This document shows positions 12,670-20,143 of a stretch of 32,000 bases of DNA, piece by piece. This DNA comes from Candidatus Micrarchaeota archaeon (lineage in GTDB: Archaea > Micrarchaeota > Micrarchaeia > Micrarchaeales > Micrarchaeaceae): positions 15,533-47,532 of the forward strand of contig JAJZZO010000001.1 in assembly GCA_021797495.1 (NCBI GenBank), given 5' to 3'. The position numbers and the translations under genes were made by a program. The notes below the pieces were generated by a model. The model made no database searches, was not told the DNA's origin, and saw only the letters and a program-made list of their open reading frames with translations. Positions within the stretch are counted from its first letter, which is position 1, and each line of letters opens with the position of its first letter.

Positions 12670-14073
12670 GTGATGTATATGCTTGCAATCTTTAACCTGG
12701 CTGTTCCGGTTCTTCTTGTGGCGCTGATAGTTTCTGGCCTTGCCGCTACAATGCATAAGTCAAAGAAGCTTTCATTCGCAACAAATAATGCAATATTCCT
12801 TCTGCTTCTGGCGTTAGGCATATATTATTCCGTATACGGTTCCTCGTTCAACGTACTGTCGCTTTACCACATATATCCGTTTTCGTCGTTCACGCTCGTA
12901 CTATTCCCTCTCGCGCTGCTGCTTGTCAATATCGCGGCTTATTACGTCGAAGATTCATACATAAAGTTCGGCATAATGCTGCCGATAATTTCTGTGGGTG
13001 TGCTCTCCGTAGGGCTTGCTTCTTCGCTCCTTACCATACTGGTAGCCATAGAACTGATGACCATACCCACGATAATACTCATAGCCCTTAACGGAAAGCA
13101 ATACGCCGAACCTGCCGCAAAGCTCTTCCTCATGGCTGCAATATCCGTTGCGGTTTTTGCCTTTTCCATAGCTCTGGCATTCCCATATGATTCCTCGTTA
13201 TCGCTCGTCCGTGCGGCCTCGGGCTCAACAGGCACATTGTATTTTCTTATACTCTCAATGGTGCTCCTTGTGGCTTCGCTCGGAACAGAGGCAGCGCTCT
13301 TTCCGTTTGATTTATGGATCCCAGACGTATACCAGGGCTCCCCCAACAGCATAAGCCCTATGCTCGCAGGAATAAACAAGAAGGTCGCCTTTATTGCCAT
13401 TATAGAAATAACCTTCATAGTTTTCATCGGGCAAAAAGCCAGCTTAACTTTGATATTCGGTGCGCTCGCGATACTCACGATGTTTTTTGGCAACCTTGGT
13501 GCAATGGTGCAGACAAACGTAAAGCGCATGCTTGCGTATTCGTCGATATCCCAAGCAGGGTACATAATGGTGGGTCTGGCAGCAGTAAGCGCGTTCGGTC
13601 TCCAAGCTGCGCTTTTCCAGATATTCGCGCATTCGTTCATGATAATAGGCGCGTTTATAATCGCAGGGTTTCTTGCCATGGAGGGCTTCATGAGCATAAG
13701 CGATTATTCCGGGCTGTATAAAAGGAGCCGCTTCCTGGCGTTTTCCCTAACGGTAATAATGCTTTCAATGGCAGGTATACCTGGGCTCATAGGTTTCGTG
13801 GGAAAATTCCTCCTCTTCTCAAGCGCAATAAGCTCGGGCCTTATCGCCCTCGCATTCATAGGGATAATAAACAGTTTCATATCGATATATTACTATGCGC
13901 GCCTGATAAGCAACATATATTCGAGCAGGGACCACAAGAGCATGCATGTGCCGCGCGAGATATACTTTACCGTGCTTTTGGTCGTGGCCATTGTCGTGTT
14001 CTTCGGTCTGTATCCTGCGCCATTAATGGCTCTTGCATCTGCCGCATCTTCCTCGATATTTTCCATCATTTAG
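12670..14073 (+). CDS. nuoN: NADH-quinone oxidoreductase subunit N (antiporter-like)
   Basis: LFPFDLWIPDVYQGSPNSISPMLAGINKKVAF and RMLAYSSISQAGYIM match the NuoN/ND2 pattern. Starts directly after the nuoM stop (GTG 12670, or ATG 12673). Confidence 0.9.
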   Translation: MMYMLAIFNLAVPVLLVALIVSGLAATMHKSKKLSFATNNAIFLLLLALGIYYSVYGSSFNVLSLYHIYPFSSFTLVLFPLALLLVNIAAYYVEDSYIKFGIMLPIISVGVLSVGLASSLLTILVAIELMTIPTIILIALNGKQYAEPAAKLFLMAAISVAVFAFSIALAFPYDSSLSLVRAASGSTGTLYFLILSMVLLVASLGTEAALFPFDLWIPDVYQGSPNSISPMLAGINKKVAFIAIIEITFIVFIGQKASLTLIFGALAILTMFFGNLGAMVQTNVKRMLAYSSISQAGYIMVGLAAVSAFGLQAALFQIFAHSFMIIGAFIIAGFLAMEGFMSISDYSGLYKRSRFLAFSLTVIMLSMAGIPGLIGFVGKFLLFSSAISSGLIALAFIGIINSFISIYYYARLISNIYSSRDHKSMHVPREIYFTVLLVVAIVVFFGLYPAPLMALASAASSSIFSII

Positions 14074-15172
14074 ACATGCCGCGAAGGAAGAAGCGCTTGA
14101 GCATAAGCGACGGGCTGTCCATATCACCATAACGTGAAAAGAAACCCTCTGCGCCGAGCGCCTTCGCGATGCCTATGAATCTTTGCATGTGCTTTTCTTC
14201 CATCATGGAATAATATCTGTGCAGTGCTGCGTGCATTTTCAGGTCTGTGCCATAAGAGCGTCTCCAATCCTTCTCGTAAAGCCCAAGTTTTCTTCCTTTG
14301 CTAATGTTCAGGTAAATATCTCTGGCAGCAACCTTTGCACAAGCTATTCCAAATATTATCCCCCCTCCTGTCGTGGCTTTGGTCTGCCCTGCAGCATCTC
14401 CTACCAGCAATACATTGCCCTTAACCGTCTTCTTCCTGCTCGAAACCGGTATTATGCTCGCATGCCCATCTATGAGCTCTGCGTTTCCAAGCCTTTTTTC
14501 CATTTCCTCAATTTTTACGAAACTCTGGAATGCAGACATACTGTGCCTTTTTACTGTGTCCGTTATCCCTATCCCTATCTCGGCTATTGATTCTGTGTAC
14601 GGCGCCACCCAACCGAAGAACCCCTGTGCATATGCTTTGGAAAAATACAAGTCGACGATTCCCCTGTTTTCCGTTTTTACATTCTTGTATTCCGCTTTGT
14701 ATGTGAGCACGAAATTGCTTATACTGGGGAAGGCGAACGCCCTGGCGACGCTCGAAACCGCGCCGTCGGCTCCAACTATCACGGTATTGCCGTCATCAAA
14801 ATCCTTTATATCATCTATCCCGAGCCTCTTCCCGAGCTCAATTTTTACTCCTGAATCCGTGGCGGCTTCATAGTTCTCTCTTGCAAGGCTTCCTCTGTCG
14901 AGTATATAAGCCTGTATCCTATCAGTCCTTATTCTCATAGATTGGTTCCCGAAATGAAGTACTGCCCCATACAGCGTGTTCACTATCGAATCCTTGTACT
15001 GTATGCCGCTGAGTTCAAGGCCCCTTTTCGACAATATTCCTGATGCCTTTTTCGAGCCCTCTTCCACGCTGCGTTTCCCGTCATAAACTGTCACGTCTAT
15101 GCCGTATTTCGCAATCTCTTTGGCTACGGCGAGTCCTATTATACCTGCACCGATTACTACCGCCCTTTTCAA
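14066..15172 (-). CDS. Geranylgeranyl reductase family FAD-dependent oxidoreductase (archaeal lipid saturation)
   Basis: N-terminal Rossmann motif VVIGAGIIGLAVAKEIAKYGIDVTVYD, plus VLLVGDAAGQTKATTGGGI, characteristic of GGR/ChlP-family enzymes. Its 3' end overlaps the nuoN stop by 8 nt (convergent). Confidence 0.85.
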   Translation of the reverse strand: MKRAVVIGAGIIGLAVAKEIAKYGIDVTVYDGKRSVEEGSKKASGILSKRGLELSGIQYKDSIVNTLYGAVLHFGNQSMRIRTDRIQAYILDRGSLARENYEAATDSGVKIELGKRLGIDDIKDFDDGNTVIVGADGAVSSVARAFAFPSISNFVLTYKAEYKNVKTENRGIVDLYFSKAYAQGFFGWVAPYTESIAEIGIGITDTVKRHSMSAFQSFVKIEEMEKRLGNAELIDGHASIIPVSSRKKTVKGNVLLVGDAAGQTKATTGGGIIFGIACAKVAARDIYLNISKGRKLGLYEKDWRRSYGTDLKMHAALHRYYSMMEEKHMQRFIGIAKALGAEGFFSRYGDMDSPSLMLKRFFLRGMSK

Positions 15173-15293
15173 TCCAAAACGCCTCCGCAGTATTTATAAC
15201 TTTCTATTTAAATTTATTATAGTTAACTACGGTGGTTTAACGGCAAACAAAAAAGACGCAAAAAAAAGCATCAAAAGCACTAAAAAGAGCGAA

Positions 15294-15620
15294 GTGAAGC
15301 CTACCGGTTCACACGAAGGGAACCTGGAATCCCCGAAGATATCGATTTATAACATAGTTGTTAGTGCAGATCTGCATGCTACCGTGGATTTATACACCCT
15401 TTCGAAAGAGGTCAAGGCCGTAGACTATGAGCCTGAGCAGTTTCCCGGGGCGATATTCAAGATTTCCGAATCCAGAACCGTAATACTCTTCAAGAACGGA
15501 AAGATGATATGCACTGGCGCCAGGACGGAACCGGAAGTAAAAAGCATATTGGAGTATGTTGCGAAAGTAATGGCCAAATACGTAATATCGCTGAATCCTC
15601 CTGAGAAAGAAAAAAGCTGA
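15294..15620 (+). CDS. Single-repeat TATA-box-binding-protein (TBP) fold protein
   Basis: ISIYNIVVSADLHATVDLYTLSKEVKAVDYEPEQFPGAIFKISESRTVILFKNGKMICTGARTEPEVKSILEYVAKVMAKY matches exactly one TBP repeat (I-x-N-I-V, YEPEQFPG, GK-x-x-x-TGA). The start is uncertain. The track start 15099 overlaps the GGR gene. The first canonical in-frame start after the GGR start codon is GTG 15294. The in-frame Lys-rich stretch 15183-15293 has no ATG/GTG/TTG. Confidence 0.7.
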   Translation: MKPTGSHEGNLESPKISIYNIVVSADLHATVDLYTLSKEVKAVDYEPEQFPGAIFKISESRTVILFKNGKMICTGARTEPEVKSILEYVAKVMAKYVISLNPPEKEKS

Positions 15621-15630
15621 GCGCATAAGC

Positions 15631-16770
15631 TCAGGCTTCGGCTACGGCTTTTAAGTATTTGTCGAATTCCCTGAAGAAATGTTCCCAAGAGTAGTTTTTC
15701 ATAACGCGTTCCCTTCCTAATTTTCCCATGTTTTTCGTCAATTTTTCATTATTTGCTACTCTGAGCATGGCATTGCTCATCGAATGTGCATCTTTTACCA
15801 AGAATCCGGTCTTTCCGTCGATTATGGTTTCCCTTGGCCCGCCTTGGTCCAACGCTATTACTGGCTTCGAACTCGCCATGGCCTCCAAAGGCACCAGGCC
15901 GTAATCCTCGTCCAACGGCGGGTACAGCACGGCTGTCGCTTTGGAATAGGCATTACGAAACTCTTTTTCGCTGACATTTGTCATTATGCTTATATCCCTA
16001 TTGCGTTTCGCCATCTCCTTTATGCGGTTATAATAATCGCTGTAAAATTTATCCTTTGATACCGCCCCTATTATCAGAAGCTTGTAGCCTTTCTTGTGCT
16101 TGCTGAATTCCTCGAATGCTCGTATTGCCATCTCCTGGTTTTTGTTCGGCGATATTCTGGAAGGGTATACAAAATACGAATGATCGCCAAGATTCCTGTA
16201 AAGCTCGTAGTCTATGCCACCTCCAAGTACTTTTGCGTCATTTCTCCCCAAGTATTTTTCTATCCTTGCCTTGGTGTTCGCGCTGTTTGCCACTATGCCC
16301 TCTATGTTCTTCACGACCTTCCTATCGAGATATTTCACGGCTTTTATGCCAAGGAAGTGCACAGGCTTTTGGTAAAACTTCTTCATCGACATGCGGAACC
16401 TGTACATGTCGTACGCGTCTCTAAGCGGTGTATGGCAATACCATAACACGCGCTTGTTGTTGTTTCGTATCCAGTGGCTCGGGGCTATGTGCGCATTTAT
16501 TACGTCATAATCGCTGTCGACGTGCATATTGTAAAATCCCAAGCCGTACTTGAGCCCCTGGAAAACCCTGCCGTAAGCCGGAAAGCCTGTCCTATTGCCC
16601 CCTATTACTTCTACATCGAGTTTTCCGAACTCCGGAAACGTGTTTTCCGGATCATACTCTGCTGTTATTATTTTTGCACGGTAGTGTTGCGCTATCTTGA
16701 GCACCACTTTCTCCGCTCCGCCTTTCAACGTAAGGTTTGCCTGCGCCATCAGCACTTTCAAGGAAATCAC
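15631..16770 (-). CDS. Glycosyltransferase family 4 (GT-B, Glycos_transf_1)
   Basis: C-terminal EDYGLVPLEAMASSKPVIALDQGGPRETIIDGKTGFLV (E-x7-E motif region), and an N-terminal GGAEKVV typical of GT4. Confidence 0.88.
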   Translation of the reverse strand: MISLKVLMAQANLTLKGGAEKVVLKIAQHYRAKIITAEYDPENTFPEFGKLDVEVIGGNRTGFPAYGRVFQGLKYGLGFYNMHVDSDYDVINAHIAPSHWIRNNNKRVLWYCHTPLRDAYDMYRFRMSMKKFYQKPVHFLGIKAVKYLDRKVVKNIEGIVANSANTKARIEKYLGRNDAKVLGGGIDYELYRNLGDHSYFVYPSRISPNKNQEMAIRAFEEFSKHKKGYKLLIIGAVSKDKFYSDYYNRIKEMAKRNRDISIMTNVSEKEFRNAYSKATAVLYPPLDEDYGLVPLEAMASSKPVIALDQGGPRETIIDGKTGFLVKDAHSMSNAMLRVANNEKLTKNMGKLGRERVMKNYSWEHFFREFDKYLKAVAEA

Positions 16771-19617: not shown

Positions 19618-20058
19618 ATGGCTATAAAATATTGGGAATTCGAAGACGCTCCGTTCAAAGAGAAGGTCAAAAATCCTAAAGTAGCCGAAATCGCACGCAT
19701 ATTCTTTGACAACGAAACGGAAGCATACCGCTTTGCCACTTTGCTGGGCTTGGCAAAGAAAAGCGGCTTAAGGCTGAAGGATGTCCCGGATAATATACCG
19801 ATAGCTACAGCGAAGAGATACCTTGACTATGCTGTCCAGATAGGTTTGCTAAAGCACGAAAATTCGGTATACGAGCTCACGGACAGGTATACAAAACCAT
19901 TGCGCAACATAGCAGCATACATAAAGGCGTGGATGGATTCCAATTCCGAAGAAGACCTCGCCATAGAGTTTGTAAATGCAAAACAGGAAAAGCAAAACAA
20001 GCGCGGCGGCAGGAATGCCAACGCAGACACGGATACGGGCCCGGCGGGAATATCATAG
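19618..20058 (+). CDS. Hypothetical protein, possible winged-helix DNA-binding fold
   Basis: 146-aa ORF with TATA-like sequences 15-35 nt upstream, so possibly leaderless. IATAKRYLDYAVQIGLLKHENSVYELTDRY resembles a recognition helix plus wing. The last ~7 codons overlap the antisense tRNA 3' exon and intron. Confidence 0.5.
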   Translation: MAIKYWEFEDAPFKEKVKNPKVAEIARIFFDNETEAYRFATLLGLAKKSGLRLKDVPDNIPIATAKRYLDYAVQIGLLKHENSVYELTDRYTKPLRNIAAYIKAWMDSNSEEDLAIEFVNAKQEKQNKRGGRNANADTDTGPAGIS

Positions 20059-20143
20059 GCTTAGCGATTGCCAATTCCATATTTTGAACCCGCGACCGTC
20101 AGCTTAGAAGGCTGCTGCTCTGTCCAAGCTGAGCTACGGGCCC
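20036..20143 (-). tRNA. tRNA-Arg (anticodon UCU) with a ~33-nt intron in the T-loop
   Basis: Minus strand reads GGGCCCG-TA-GCTC-AGCTTGGACA-GAGC-A-GCAGC-CTTCTAA-GCTGA-CGGTC-GCGGG-TTCAAA..[intron]..T-CCCGC-CGGGCCC-G. The 7-bp acceptor stem is perfect (20143-20137 with 20043-20037). The T stem GCGGG (20093-20089) pairs with CCCGC (20048-20044), but 40 nt lie between the arms instead of 7. No CCA is encoded. Confidence 0.85.

What the first reader, a model, noticed from the sequence alone, without database searches (positions are those of the whole stretch)
15183..15620. Half-size TBP: a protein consisting of a single TATA-binding-protein repeat
Canonical archaeal and eukaryotic TBPs contain two tandem ~90-aa repeats that form the DNA-binding saddle. 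This ORF contains one complete repeat: strand S1 ISIYNIVVSADL, the hallmark YEPEQFPG, LFKNGKMICTGA, and a C-terminal helix EVKSILEYVAKVMAKY. It then stops.

Upstream is only an A-rich, Lys-coding stretch with no canonical start codon. The likely start is GTG 15294, giving about 108 aa. It is not an obvious decayed fragment, because the repeat is intact and bounded by convergent and divergent genes with no second repeat in any frame.

A single-repeat protein could homodimerise into a symmetric saddle, the postulated ancestral TBP state. It could also act as a TBP antagonist or another nucleic-acid-binding factor.
Basis: partly seen in the sequence, partly recalled or inferred. Interest (0 to 1): 0.65.

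Follow-up and report, generated by a model that had tools for sequence, protein, structure and literature searches.

The report
Single-repeat TATA-binding protein of a Micrarchaeon
This gene encodes an intact, strongly conserved half-size TATA-binding protein, one of a large unreported family in Micrarchaeota archaea, which must pair up to form the DNA-binding saddle and so offers a living test of the idea that TBP began as a homodimer.

Summary
Window 15240-15620 (+) encodes one complete TBP repeat (Pfam PF00352, E 4e-21), and no second repeat exists in any frame of the 32 kb.

It is not a fragment or an assembly error. The identical protein occurs on 13 independent contigs, dN/dS is 0.02, and the gene order GGR-like | half-TBP | GT4 is conserved as far as Mancarchaeum Mia14.

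More than 100 sequence clusters of 90-145 aa homologues exist in Micrarchaeales. In sister lineages, other half-size TBPs sit at the canonical TBP locus next to L21e-Rpo4. Full-length Micrarchaeota TBPs have repeats 58-94% identical to each other, against 44-52% in other archaea. Repeat fission and fusion is therefore recurrent, and the half-size form is derived, not ancestral.

DNA-kinking and TFB-contact motifs are retained. The most likely function is a general TBP acting as a dimer.

The start is probably not GTG 15294. It is more likely a conserved ACG (15240) behind a Shine-Dalgarno-like GGTG(A/G)T, giving 126 aa.

One point is unresolved: whether the genome carries another TBP gene. Published tables list two TBP-family genes in Mia14. 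I found no paper describing this family.

The parts
15240..15620 (+). Proposed coding sequence of the single-repeat TBP (126 aa, ACG start to TGA stop)
   Evidence: Frame and stop. ACG start inferred from comparison of 13 loci. Identical 108-aa core on 13 contigs.
15339..15581 (+). The TBP repeat itself (strands S1-S5, helices H1 and H2). Contains NIV (S1), YEPEQFPG (stirrup and first kinking Phe) and LFKNGKMICTG (second Phe and DNA-contact Thr).
   Evidence: Pfam PF00352 E 3.8e-21, full-length profile match. PDB alignments. Top 18 Foldseek hits are all TBP. dN/dS 0.02.
15240..15335 (+). Lys/Ala/Ser-rich basic N-terminal tail (TANKKDAKKSIKSTKKSEVKPTGSHEGNLESP), predicted disordered
   Evidence: Tails of 22-43 codons are always in frame in relatives. 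A 21-nt in-frame indel separates the window from L001. dN/dS 0.13-0.57. pLDDT below 50. Homologues with ATG starts have similar tails.
15240..15242 (+). ACG, the probable non-canonical initiation codon
   Evidence: Aligned with the ATG start of Mancarchaeum Mia14. L004 and L005 have an in-frame TAA immediately upstream. L004 and L011 have no in-frame ATG/GTG/TTG before strand S1.
15231..15236 (+). Shine-Dalgarno-like GGTGGT (GGTGAT in most relatives), 3 nt upstream of the ACG
   Evidence: Motif [G/T]G[T/A]G[G/A][T/A]T-N2-3-A[C/T]G is present in 13 of 13 group-A1 loci. Complementarity to the 16S 3' end is from general knowledge and was not tested here.
15294..15296 (+). Not conserved.
   Evidence: ACG occupies this position in L001/L002. 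L003 has a GTG elsewhere.
15190..15222 (.). AT-rich divergent promoter region with two TATA-like boxes (TATTTATAA 15191-15199; TTTAAATTTATTATA 15208-15222), shared with the divergent GGR-like gene
   Evidence: Read directly from the sequence. Almost invariant between the window and L001/L002. Assignment of the boxes to strands is inference.
14066..15172 (-). Divergent FAD-dependent oxidoreductase (geranylgeranyl-reductase-like). Conserved left neighbour.
   Evidence: Pfam. Synteny in L001-L007, L011, L085, L090-93, L099, L108, L110.
15631..16770 (-). Convergent GT4 glycosyltransferase. Conserved right neighbour in both group A1 and A2.
   Evidence: Pfam. Synteny.
15616..15633 (.). 6-bp hairpin (CTGAGC-GCATAA-GCTCAG) spanning the two convergent stop codons
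   Evidence: Read from the sequence. Not tested.

Best explanation
The ORF encodes a functional single-repeat TATA-binding protein of a Micrarchaeum-like DPANN archaeon.

One repeat is half a saddle, so two chains must associate. The partner is most simply a second copy, giving a two-fold symmetric homodimer. Possibly it is a second half-size paralogue. The dimer would rebuild the ten-stranded concave sheet that binds and kinks TATA DNA.

Each subunit keeps the Asn/Val of strand S1, both DNA-kinking phenylalanines, the DNA-contact Ile/Thr, and the acidic YEPEQ stirrup that TFB binds. The dimer could therefore recruit TFB on either side, and promoter polarity would be set by TFB-BRE, as is already the case in archaea.

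The basic, disordered N-terminal tail probably adds non-specific DNA affinity.

Translation probably starts at a conserved ACG codon placed 3 nt behind a strong Shine-Dalgarno-like element.

Shown here: domain identity, intactness, purifying selection, conservation of family and synteny, half-size genes at the canonical TBP locus in sister lineages, and near-identical repeats in fused relatives.

Inferred: dimerisation, TATA and TFB binding, the role as general factor, and ACG initiation.
For: Domain identity:
- A single full-length PF00352 match.
- The best sequence and fold matches are bona fide TBPs only.

Not an artefact or fragment:
- The identical protein occurs on 13 contigs from independent assemblies.
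- dN/dS is 0.022 (window vs L001) and 0.005 (L001 vs L003), with dS near saturation.
- The order GGR | TBP | GT4 is conserved from the window to Mancarchaeum Mia14 at 67% aa identity, and in more than 15 other loci.
- There is no second repeat in the window.

Family size:
- 324 homologous clusters were found. About 100 of the 120 listed are 79-174 aa single-repeat proteins.

Half-size genes can be 'the' TBP:
- In sister Micrarchaeales lineages a 98-106 aa TBP (group B) lies divergent from the L21e gene. In several of these loci (L022, L086-L089) DUF655 and/or Rpo4 also lie nearby.
- Full-length Micrarchaeota TBPs lie divergent from the intact L21e-Rpo4-DUF655 cluster.

Fused forms are near-perfect internal duplicates:
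- N and C repeats are 58-76% identical in species representatives and up to 94% in P0153. Other archaea show 44-52%.
- All Micrarchaeota repeats form one clade.
- A symmetric saddle is therefore evidently functional in this phylum.

Conserved residues:
- S42, H46, D50, L51, YEPEQFPGAI, LFKNGK-ICTG are invariant across 43 homologues. Their roles are taken from yeast and Pyrococcus TBP structures (knowledge).

Monomer model:
- In the AlphaFold monomer, strand S1, the central strand that would abut the partner, is the least confident part of the domain.

Not a mobile-element gene:
- No close relative is present in 2.9 M viral contigs.

Start codon.
Against: - No direct evidence for dimerisation or DNA binding. 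The tools allowed no multimer model.
- I could not establish that this is the only TBP-family gene of its genome. Golyshina et al. 2017, Supplementary Data 4, lists two arCOG01764 (TBP) members in Mancarchaeum Mia14, and the second was not identified.
- Group A (this gene) is not at the canonical L21e-linked TBP locus. What sits at that locus in group-A genomes is unknown.
- One 2-kb contig (L109) carries an A/B hybrid gene that joins the flanks of both loci. If real, this implies that A and B genes coexist in one genome.
- The AlphaFold monomer is of low confidence (mean pLDDT 62).
- ACG initiation is unusual and unproven. Some relatives have an ATG just before strand S1 that could serve instead.
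Confidence: 0.68

Rival explanations
1. Split TBP. The genome encodes two different half-size TBPs: this group-A gene, plus a group-B-like gene next to L21e. The functional saddle is then an A/B heterodimer, or there are two alternative homodimers with different promoter sets.
For: - Mia14 is listed with two arCOG01764 genes.
- Groups A and B are sister clades. Both occur in MAGs labelled Micrarchaeaceae.
- Group A is not at the canonical locus.
- The hybrid A/B gene on L109 joins the left flank of the A locus to the right flank of the B locus, as expected from recombination between paralogues in one genome.
Against: - No assembly, MAG or contig was found to carry both types.
- 15 WGS prefixes with A and 13 with B do not overlap.
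- The long group-A contigs (0.41-1.21 Mb) are absent from the top 120 B-lineage L21e hits. The long B-lineage contigs (0.46-0.85 Mb) are absent from the listed group-A hits.
- A-B divergence of about 50% is similar to the L21e divergence between lineages, which fits orthology.
- Both A and B keep the same symmetric TFB-contact motif rather than diverging in complementary ways.
- L109 is a single low-coverage 2-kb contig, and its junction falls exactly in the most conserved stretch. That is typical of an assembly chimera.
Confidence: 0.2
2. Accessory paralogue or antagonist. A normal two-repeat TBP exists elsewhere in the genome. This half-size protein then modulates transcription, either by capping TBP or TFB or by binding other nucleic acids, as is assumed for the non-essential halobacterial TbpA.
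For: - Precedent: single-domain TbpA coexists with full-length TBPs in Halobacteria, and Thermococcales monopartite proteins coexist with TBP (Brindefalk 2013).
- Mia14 has two arCOG01764 genes.
- The gene is not at the canonical locus.
Against: - No full-length TBP from any group-A-bearing contig appears among the 120 best hits of either TBP search.
- The protein keeps every hallmark DNA- and TFB-contact motif under very strong purifying selection. The diverged Thermococcales proteins do not.
- Sister lineages have only a half-size gene at the TBP locus.
- Conservation across genera in fixed synteny points to a core function.
Confidence: 0.1
3. Truncated pseudogene or assembly/sequencing artefact that lost a second repeat.
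For: - There is no canonical start codon close to the promoter.
- A-runs in the 5' region vary between strains, and P0002 has a shifted N-terminus.
Against: - 13 independent contigs carry the identical protein.
- dN/dS is 0.02.
- More than 100 half-size clusters exist.
- The neighbours are tightly packed and conserved: only 10 nt separate the stop codon from the convergent gene.
- No second repeat exists in any frame.
Confidence: 0.02

Closest known systems
Canonical archaeal TBP (two tandem PF00352 repeats, e.g. Sulfolobus acidocaldarius 1MP9, Pyrococcus woesei 1PCZ/1AIS)
   Same: Same domain family, at 36-50% identity per repeat. The same hallmark motifs are present: NIV in S1, YEPEQFPG, and F-x-x-GK-x-x-x-TG. 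The presumed partners, TATA DNA and TFB, are the same.
   Different: - One repeat instead of two (about 126 aa against about 185 aa).
- A basic N-terminal tail instead of the usual acidic C-terminal tail.
- The saddle has to be built from two chains.
- A probable ACG start.
Full-length Micrarchaeota/Iainarchaeota TBPs (e.g. P0004, P0153, L017-L024)
   Same: These are the closest two-repeat relatives (50-54% identity). They share the clade-specific YEPEQFPGA and LLFKNGK motifs.
   Different: They are covalent tandems whose two repeats are 58-94% identical to each other, and they sit next to L21e-Rpo4-DUF655. The window gene is a single unit at another locus.
Group-B half-size TBPs of sister Micrarchaeales (L015, L016, L022, L027, L086-L089, L094-L098)
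   Same: Single repeat of 98-116 aa, the same motifs, and short basic N-termini. They are the sister clade of the window's group.
   Different: They are located at the canonical TBP locus, divergent from L21e. They are about 50% identical to the window protein and carry ICKI/YKI in place of IFKI/IFRI. They have ordinary ATG starts.
Halobacterial TbpA (single-TBP-domain protein; Brindefalk et al. 2013, PMC3597702)
   Same: A free-standing single TBP repeat that is close in sequence to genuine TBP repeats.
   Different: According to that paper, TbpA coexists with several full-length TBPs and is not essential. The Micrarchaeota family is chromosomal, syntenic and phylum-wide, and no full-length partner was detected here.
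Thermococcales monopartite TBP-domain proteins (e.g. P. furiosus NP_578195; Brindefalk et al. 2013)
   Same: Single TBP-fold proteins of 82-136 aa in archaea.
   Different: Those are highly diverged from TBP (a separate cluster with low pairwise similarity) and coexist with a normal TBP. The window protein scores 75 bits on PF00352 and keeps all the TBP motifs.
RNase HIII N-terminal domain and DNA-glycosylase N-terminal domain (TBP-like fold)
   Same: A single copy of the TBP-like fold that binds nucleic acid as one domain.
   Different: Those domains are parts of multidomain enzymes and are not detectable with PF00352 at this level. The window protein has no enzymatic domain and matches only TBPs.

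Membership tests
TBP repeat family (Pfam PF00352) | Significant full-length match to the repeat profile | tested here: met
   E 3.8e-21, 75.1 bits (cut-off 22.9), profile positions 2-85 of 85.
TBP repeat family (Pfam PF00352) | TBP fold (five-stranded sheet plus two helices) | tested here: inconclusive
   The AlphaFold monomer has mean pLDDT 61.7, and strand S1 is not modelled. Even so, the top 18 Foldseek PDB hits are all TBP, with probability 0.99-1.00 and TM about 0.42.
TBP repeat family (Pfam PF00352) | Conserved DNA-contact residues: S1 Asn/Val, two kinking Phe, Ile/Thr of S5 | tested here: met
   N38, V40, F68, F84, I90 and T92 (126-aa numbering) are present, and invariant or nearly so in 43 homologues. 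The mapping to yeast F190/F207/V213/T215 comes from knowledge and from the PDB alignments.
Canonical archaeal TBP (general transcription factor) | Two tandem repeats in one polypeptide | tested here: not met
   One repeat only. No second repeat in any frame of the window. NCBIfam whole-protein cut-offs are not reached.
Canonical archaeal TBP (general transcription factor) | TFB-binding acidic stirrup (E-P-E-Q/L before the first Phe) | tested here: met
   YEPEQFPG is invariant in the family. Its role is taken from TBP-TFB-DNA structures 1AIS and 1D3U (knowledge).
Canonical archaeal TBP (general transcription factor) | Binds and bends TATA DNA and supports initiation with TFB and RNAP | not testable with these tools
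   Needs EMSA or in vitro transcription.
Canonical archaeal TBP (general transcription factor) | Is the (or a) TBP gene of the genome at the lineage's usual locus | tested here: not met
   Micrarchaeota TBPs, both full-length and group-B half-size, lie next to L21e, and the full-length ones next to the intact L21e-Rpo4-DUF655 cluster. This gene lies between the GGR-like and GT4 genes.
Halobacterial TbpA-type accessory single-domain TBP | Coexists with full-length TBP paralogues very similar to it in the same genome | tested here: inconclusive
   No full-length TBP from group-A contigs appears among the listed hits. However, complete genomes could not be searched, and Mia14 is reported with two TBP-family genes.
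Thermococcales monopartite TBP-domain proteins | Strongly diverged from TBP repeats (a separate sequence cluster) | tested here: not met
   The window protein is 36-50% identical to true TBP repeats and carries all the motifs.
RNase HIII N-terminal / other TBP-like-fold domains | Best profile match to those families, and fusion to an enzymatic domain | tested here: not met
   PF00352 is the only Pfam hit. All 35 PDB sequence hits are TBPs. No other domain is present in the 126-aa protein.

The most novel reading that the evidence does not exclude
A whole order of archaea (Micrarchaeales, including cultivated Micrarchaeum and Mancarchaeum) runs all transcription initiation with a two-fold symmetric TBP. 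That TBP is assembled from identical half-size subunits. The TBP gene in this phylum repeatedly splits and re-fuses, and in the window's lineage the essential factor is translated from a conserved ACG start codon.
Probability: 0.4. Interest if true: 0.85.

Novelty: new variant of a known kind. Interest (0 to 1): 0.68.

Why it matters
TBP's two-repeat saddle is the textbook example of a pseudo-symmetric protein thought to descend from a homodimer, but no organism is known to use a homodimeric TBP as its general factor.

A natural, conserved, half-size TBP makes the hypothesis directly testable. Its relatives occupy the TBP locus, and its fused cousins are up to 94% internally identical. Three questions become open to experiment:
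- Does a symmetric saddle bind TATA DNA?
- How does TFB-BRE alone impose polarity?
- How easily do fission and fusion occur?

Cultivated members (Micrarchaeum harzensis A_DKE, Mancarchaeum Mia14) exist for such experiments.

There are also practical consequences. NCBI's pipeline labels these proteins 'hypothetical', and gene callers mis-start them, so genome surveys may mis-score TBP in DPANN. The conserved ACG start would be a rare case of near-cognate initiation on a core archaeal gene.

Tried and rejected
**1. Is there a second TBP gene in the same genome?** Not resolved.
- The genome-contig scan stopped at 600 rows, so absence means nothing.
- The group-B profile search listed only full-length proteins.
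- The L21e profile search reached only the B lineage.
- The near-equal contig lengths 586,870 and 586,910 bp belong to different organisms.
- An exact 74-nt scan of metagenome contigs found nothing, not even the JGI contig known to hold the sequence, so that collection is incomplete.
- Look-ups of P0085, P0074, P0094 and P0015 gave assemblies that do not overlap the B-type assemblies.
- The supplements of Krause 2022 and of the DPANN comparison held no TBP or L21e rows.

**2. Leaderless GTG 15232 as the start.** Rejected. It is out of frame and followed by TAA in the window.

**3. Mini-ORF with termination-reinitiation, or frameshifting at the A-runs.** Rejected. The feature is not conserved in L001, L004 or L005.

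**4. Viral or mobile origin.** Rejected. Only 11 distant hits (29-38% identity), mostly full-length, in IMG/VR.

**5. Homodimer modelling.** Not possible. The monomer model is of low confidence.

**6. Literature.** Nine searches were run in all. Seven looked for half-size or single-repeat TBP in DPANN or Micrarchaeota or for ACG starts in archaea. They returned only Brindefalk 2013 for other lineages, and nothing on this family. The other two located the Mia14 and A_DKE genome papers.

Full report
**What is there**

- Pfam finds a single, end-to-end TBP repeat: PF00352, E 3.8e-21, profile positions 2-85 of 85, nt 15339-15581.
- NCBIfam TBP models match only one half and fall far below their whole-protein cut-offs.
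- The repeat aligns about equally well to both repeats of solved archaeal TBPs. All 35 PDB sequence hits are TBPs.
- A repeat HMM run over all six frames of the 32-kb window hits this ORF alone.

The neighbours are a divergent FAD-dependent geranylgeranyl-reductase-like gene (14066-15172, -) and a convergent GT4 glycosyltransferase (15631-16770, -). Only 10 nt separate the two convergent stop codons. The rest of the window holds Nuo subunits, SRP54, a DRG GTPase, TatD, SecY and HisRS. These are ordinary chromosomal genes of a Micrarchaeum-like DPANN archaeon.

**It is real and under selection**

- The identical protein occurs on 13 contigs from independent assemblies, including NCBI GCA_023484695.1.
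- Against relatives at 92% protein identity, synonymous sites are near saturation while the domain hardly changes. dN/dS is 0.022 for window vs L001 and 0.005 for L001 vs L003.
- The order GGR-like | half-TBP | GT4 is kept in every group-A1 locus examined and in the complete genome of Mancarchaeum acidiphilum Mia14, where the protein is 67% identical.
- No close relative occurs in 2.9 million viral contigs.

Fragment, artefact and mobile-element explanations are therefore excluded.

**It belongs to a large family**

The protein search returned 324 clusters. About 100 of the 120 listed are 79-174 aa proteins with one repeat, named 'TBP' by IMG and 'hypothetical protein' by NCBI. Against 1.84 billion 50%-identity representatives there are 3,668 TBP-like hits, with several distinct short single-repeat representatives.

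A truncated scan of species-representative genomes shows several kinds of half-size TBP in Micrarchaeota and Iainarchaeota:
- the window's group A (L003-L013);
- a sister group B (L014-16, L022, L027);
- others (L018, L021, L026, L030, L038).

**Evolutionary context**

Full-length Micrarchaeota TBPs lie divergent from the conserved L21e-Rpo4-DUF655(-KsgA) cluster. Half-size genes of group B and of L030 occupy exactly this position, immediately divergent from L21e. L025, L026 and L038 lie within about 1.6 kb of L21e on the same contigs.

Two further B-lineage species were looked up through their L21e, in nine assemblies. One assembly includes a 586,910-bp contig. Each has one 98-106 aa TBP at that position. 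So a half-size gene can sit where 'the' TBP gene belongs.

A neighbour-joining tree puts all Micrarchaeota repeats (N, C and half-size) in one clade, apart from the N and C repeats of other archaea.

Within full-length Micrarchaeota TBPs, the two repeats are 58-76% identical in species representatives and up to 91-94% in P0152-P0155. Woesearchaeota, Pacearchaeota, Thermoplasmata and Sulfolobales show 44-52%.

Repeat duplication-fusion, or fission with homogenisation, is therefore recurrent and recent in this phylum. A protein with 94% identical repeats is in effect a covalent homodimer. This is the strongest indirect evidence that a symmetric saddle works. It also shows that the half-size state here is derived, not a relic of the ancestral TBP.

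**Function**

Across 43 homologues the invariant positions are S42, H46, D50, L51, L54, Y63-I72 (YEPEQFPGAI), L83-K88 (LFKNGK) and I90-G93 (ICTG).

From known TBP structures (yeast TBP; P. woesei TBP-TFB-DNA 1AIS and 1D3U; knowledge plus the alignments), these positions include:
- the S1 Asn/Val;
- both DNA-kinking phenylalanines;
- the S5 Ile/Thr;
- the acidic stirrup contacted by TFB/TFIIB.

The AlphaFold monomer is of low confidence (mean pLDDT 61.7). The central strand S1 and the tail are below 50, yet the top 18 Foldseek PDB hits are all TBP.

The most economical mechanism is that two chains form the saddle, bind TATA DNA and present a TFB site on each side, with polarity set by TFB-BRE. 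The Lys-rich tail, present in most family members, would add electrostatic DNA affinity. None of this is shown directly.

**Start codon**

L001/L002 have ACG there, with no other in-frame ATG/GTG/TTG between the promoter and strand S1. L004 and L011 have none at all.

All 13 group-A1 loci carry [G/T]G[T/A]G[G/A][T/A]T-N2-3-A[C/T]G upstream. The last codon is always in frame with the repeat, although the intervening tails range from 22 to 43 codons. That codon is ATG in Mancarchaeum and ACG in the other twelve. L004 and L005 have an in-frame TAA immediately before it. Indels in the tail are in frame (21 nt), and tail dN/dS is 0.13-0.57.

I therefore place the start at ACG 15240, behind the SD-like GGTGGT at 15231-15236, giving 126 aa. 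The assignment is comparative and awaits TSS or peptide data.

**What remains open**

I could not determine whether the genome has another TBP-family gene.

Golyshina et al. (2017), Supplementary Data 4, list two arCOG01764 proteins in Mia14.

Indirect evidence suggests that the A-bearing and B-bearing genomes are different clades:
- WGS prefixes and locus-tag prefixes do not overlap.
- Long-contig fingerprints do not overlap between the group-A hits and the top 120 B-lineage L21e hits.

Against this, a single 2-kb contig (L109) carries an A/B hybrid gene that joins the flanks of both loci. This is either an assembly chimera at the YEPEQFPGA stretch or a trace of recombination between coexisting paralogues.

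I put about 0.68 on 'genuine TBP that acts as a dimer and serves as a general factor'. That figure includes the homodimer case at about 0.45. I put 0.2 on an A/B split TBP and 0.1 on an accessory or antagonist paralogue.

**Comparison with the literature**

Single-domain TBP proteins are known from Halobacteria (TbpA, non-essential, alongside full-length TBPs) and from Thermococcales (diverged, alongside TBP) (Brindefalk et al. 2013, PMC3597702).

Seven of nine full-text searches addressed this question, and none found a description of half-size TBPs in Micrarchaeota or DPANN, or of ACG starts in archaea. A study that ranks TBPs by inter-repeat distance did not include these lineages (PMC4910066). 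DPANN genome surveys simply score TBP as present.

I therefore class the finding as a new variant of a known kind.

Noticed in passing
window 15231-15242, with L001, L003-L007, L011, L085, L093, L099, L108, L109: A conserved Shine-Dalgarno-like GGTG(A/G)T followed after 2-3 nt by ACG (ATG only in Mancarchaeum). The codon is always in frame with the TBP repeat. This is a probable near-cognate ACG start on a core transcription gene, missed by all gene callers, which start at various upstream or internal codons.
   Followed up: yes
L109 (ENA ERZ27236996 k141_903115, 2054 bp), gene 1100-1483: A hybrid half-TBP (P0420). Its N-half is group A and its C-half is group B, with the junction at YEPEQFPGAI. 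It is flanked on the left by the A-locus GGR-like gene and on the right by the B-locus DedA/VTT gene. This is either an assembly chimera or recombination between two paralogues in one genome.
   Followed up: partly
P0152-P0155, P0156, P0208 (proteins): Full-length Micrarchaeota TBPs whose N and C repeats are 88-94% identical to each other. These are very recent tandem duplications of a group-B-like half gene.
   Followed up: partly
P0416 (272 aa) and P0429 (702 aa): TBP-like proteins with three and four repeats. P0416 has two nearly identical N-type repeats plus a C-type repeat. P0429 has four diverged repeats plus a long C-terminal region. P0417 (four repeats, eukaryote-like) looks like a duplicated gene model.
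   Followed up: no
window 20040-20143 (-), just downstream of the TatD gene: A tRNA-Arg(UCU)-like gene found by Rfam (31.4 bits) but not by ARAGORN. The T-loop appears to be interrupted by an insert of about 32 nt (GCGGGTTCAAAA[...]TCCCGC). That would be a non-canonical intron of the kind reported for ARMAN-type archaea.
   Followed up: partly
window 15190-15222: Only 67 bp separate the divergent start codons (TTG 15172 on the minus strand, ACG 15240 on the plus strand). The spacer holds two back-to-back TATA-like boxes and is almost invariant between the window and L001/L002. It is a compact bidirectional promoter on the TBP gene itself, so autoregulation is conceivable.
   Followed up: no
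window 15245-15268 and P0002: A-runs (A6, A8) in the 5' coding region differ in length between strains. One 546-bp ENA contig (P0002) has a shifted N-terminal frame that joins the upstream GTG frame to the TBP frame. This is probably a homopolymer sequencing error or strain variation.
   Followed up: partly
L003, L090-L092, L012, L014 and names: Micrarchaeota contigs carrying this gene are deposited under wrong organism names: Methanothrix sp., Candidatus Baltobacteraceae bacterium, Candidatus Acidoferrales bacterium, Candidatus Marsarchaeota archaeon. This points to mis-binned or mis-classified MAGs.
   Followed up: no
window 15615-15633: A 6-bp hairpin (CTGAGC/GCTCAG, loop GCATAA) overlaps the stop codons of the convergent TBP and GT4 genes. 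It may be a shared terminator element.
   Followed up: no
L100-L102 (P0085 loci): In one group-A species the right-hand neighbour is not GT4 but a small RNAP subunit (Zn-ribbon RPAB4/RpoP-like), followed by L37ae and an exosome RNase PH subunit. There the half-TBP sits beside other information-processing genes.
   Followed up: no
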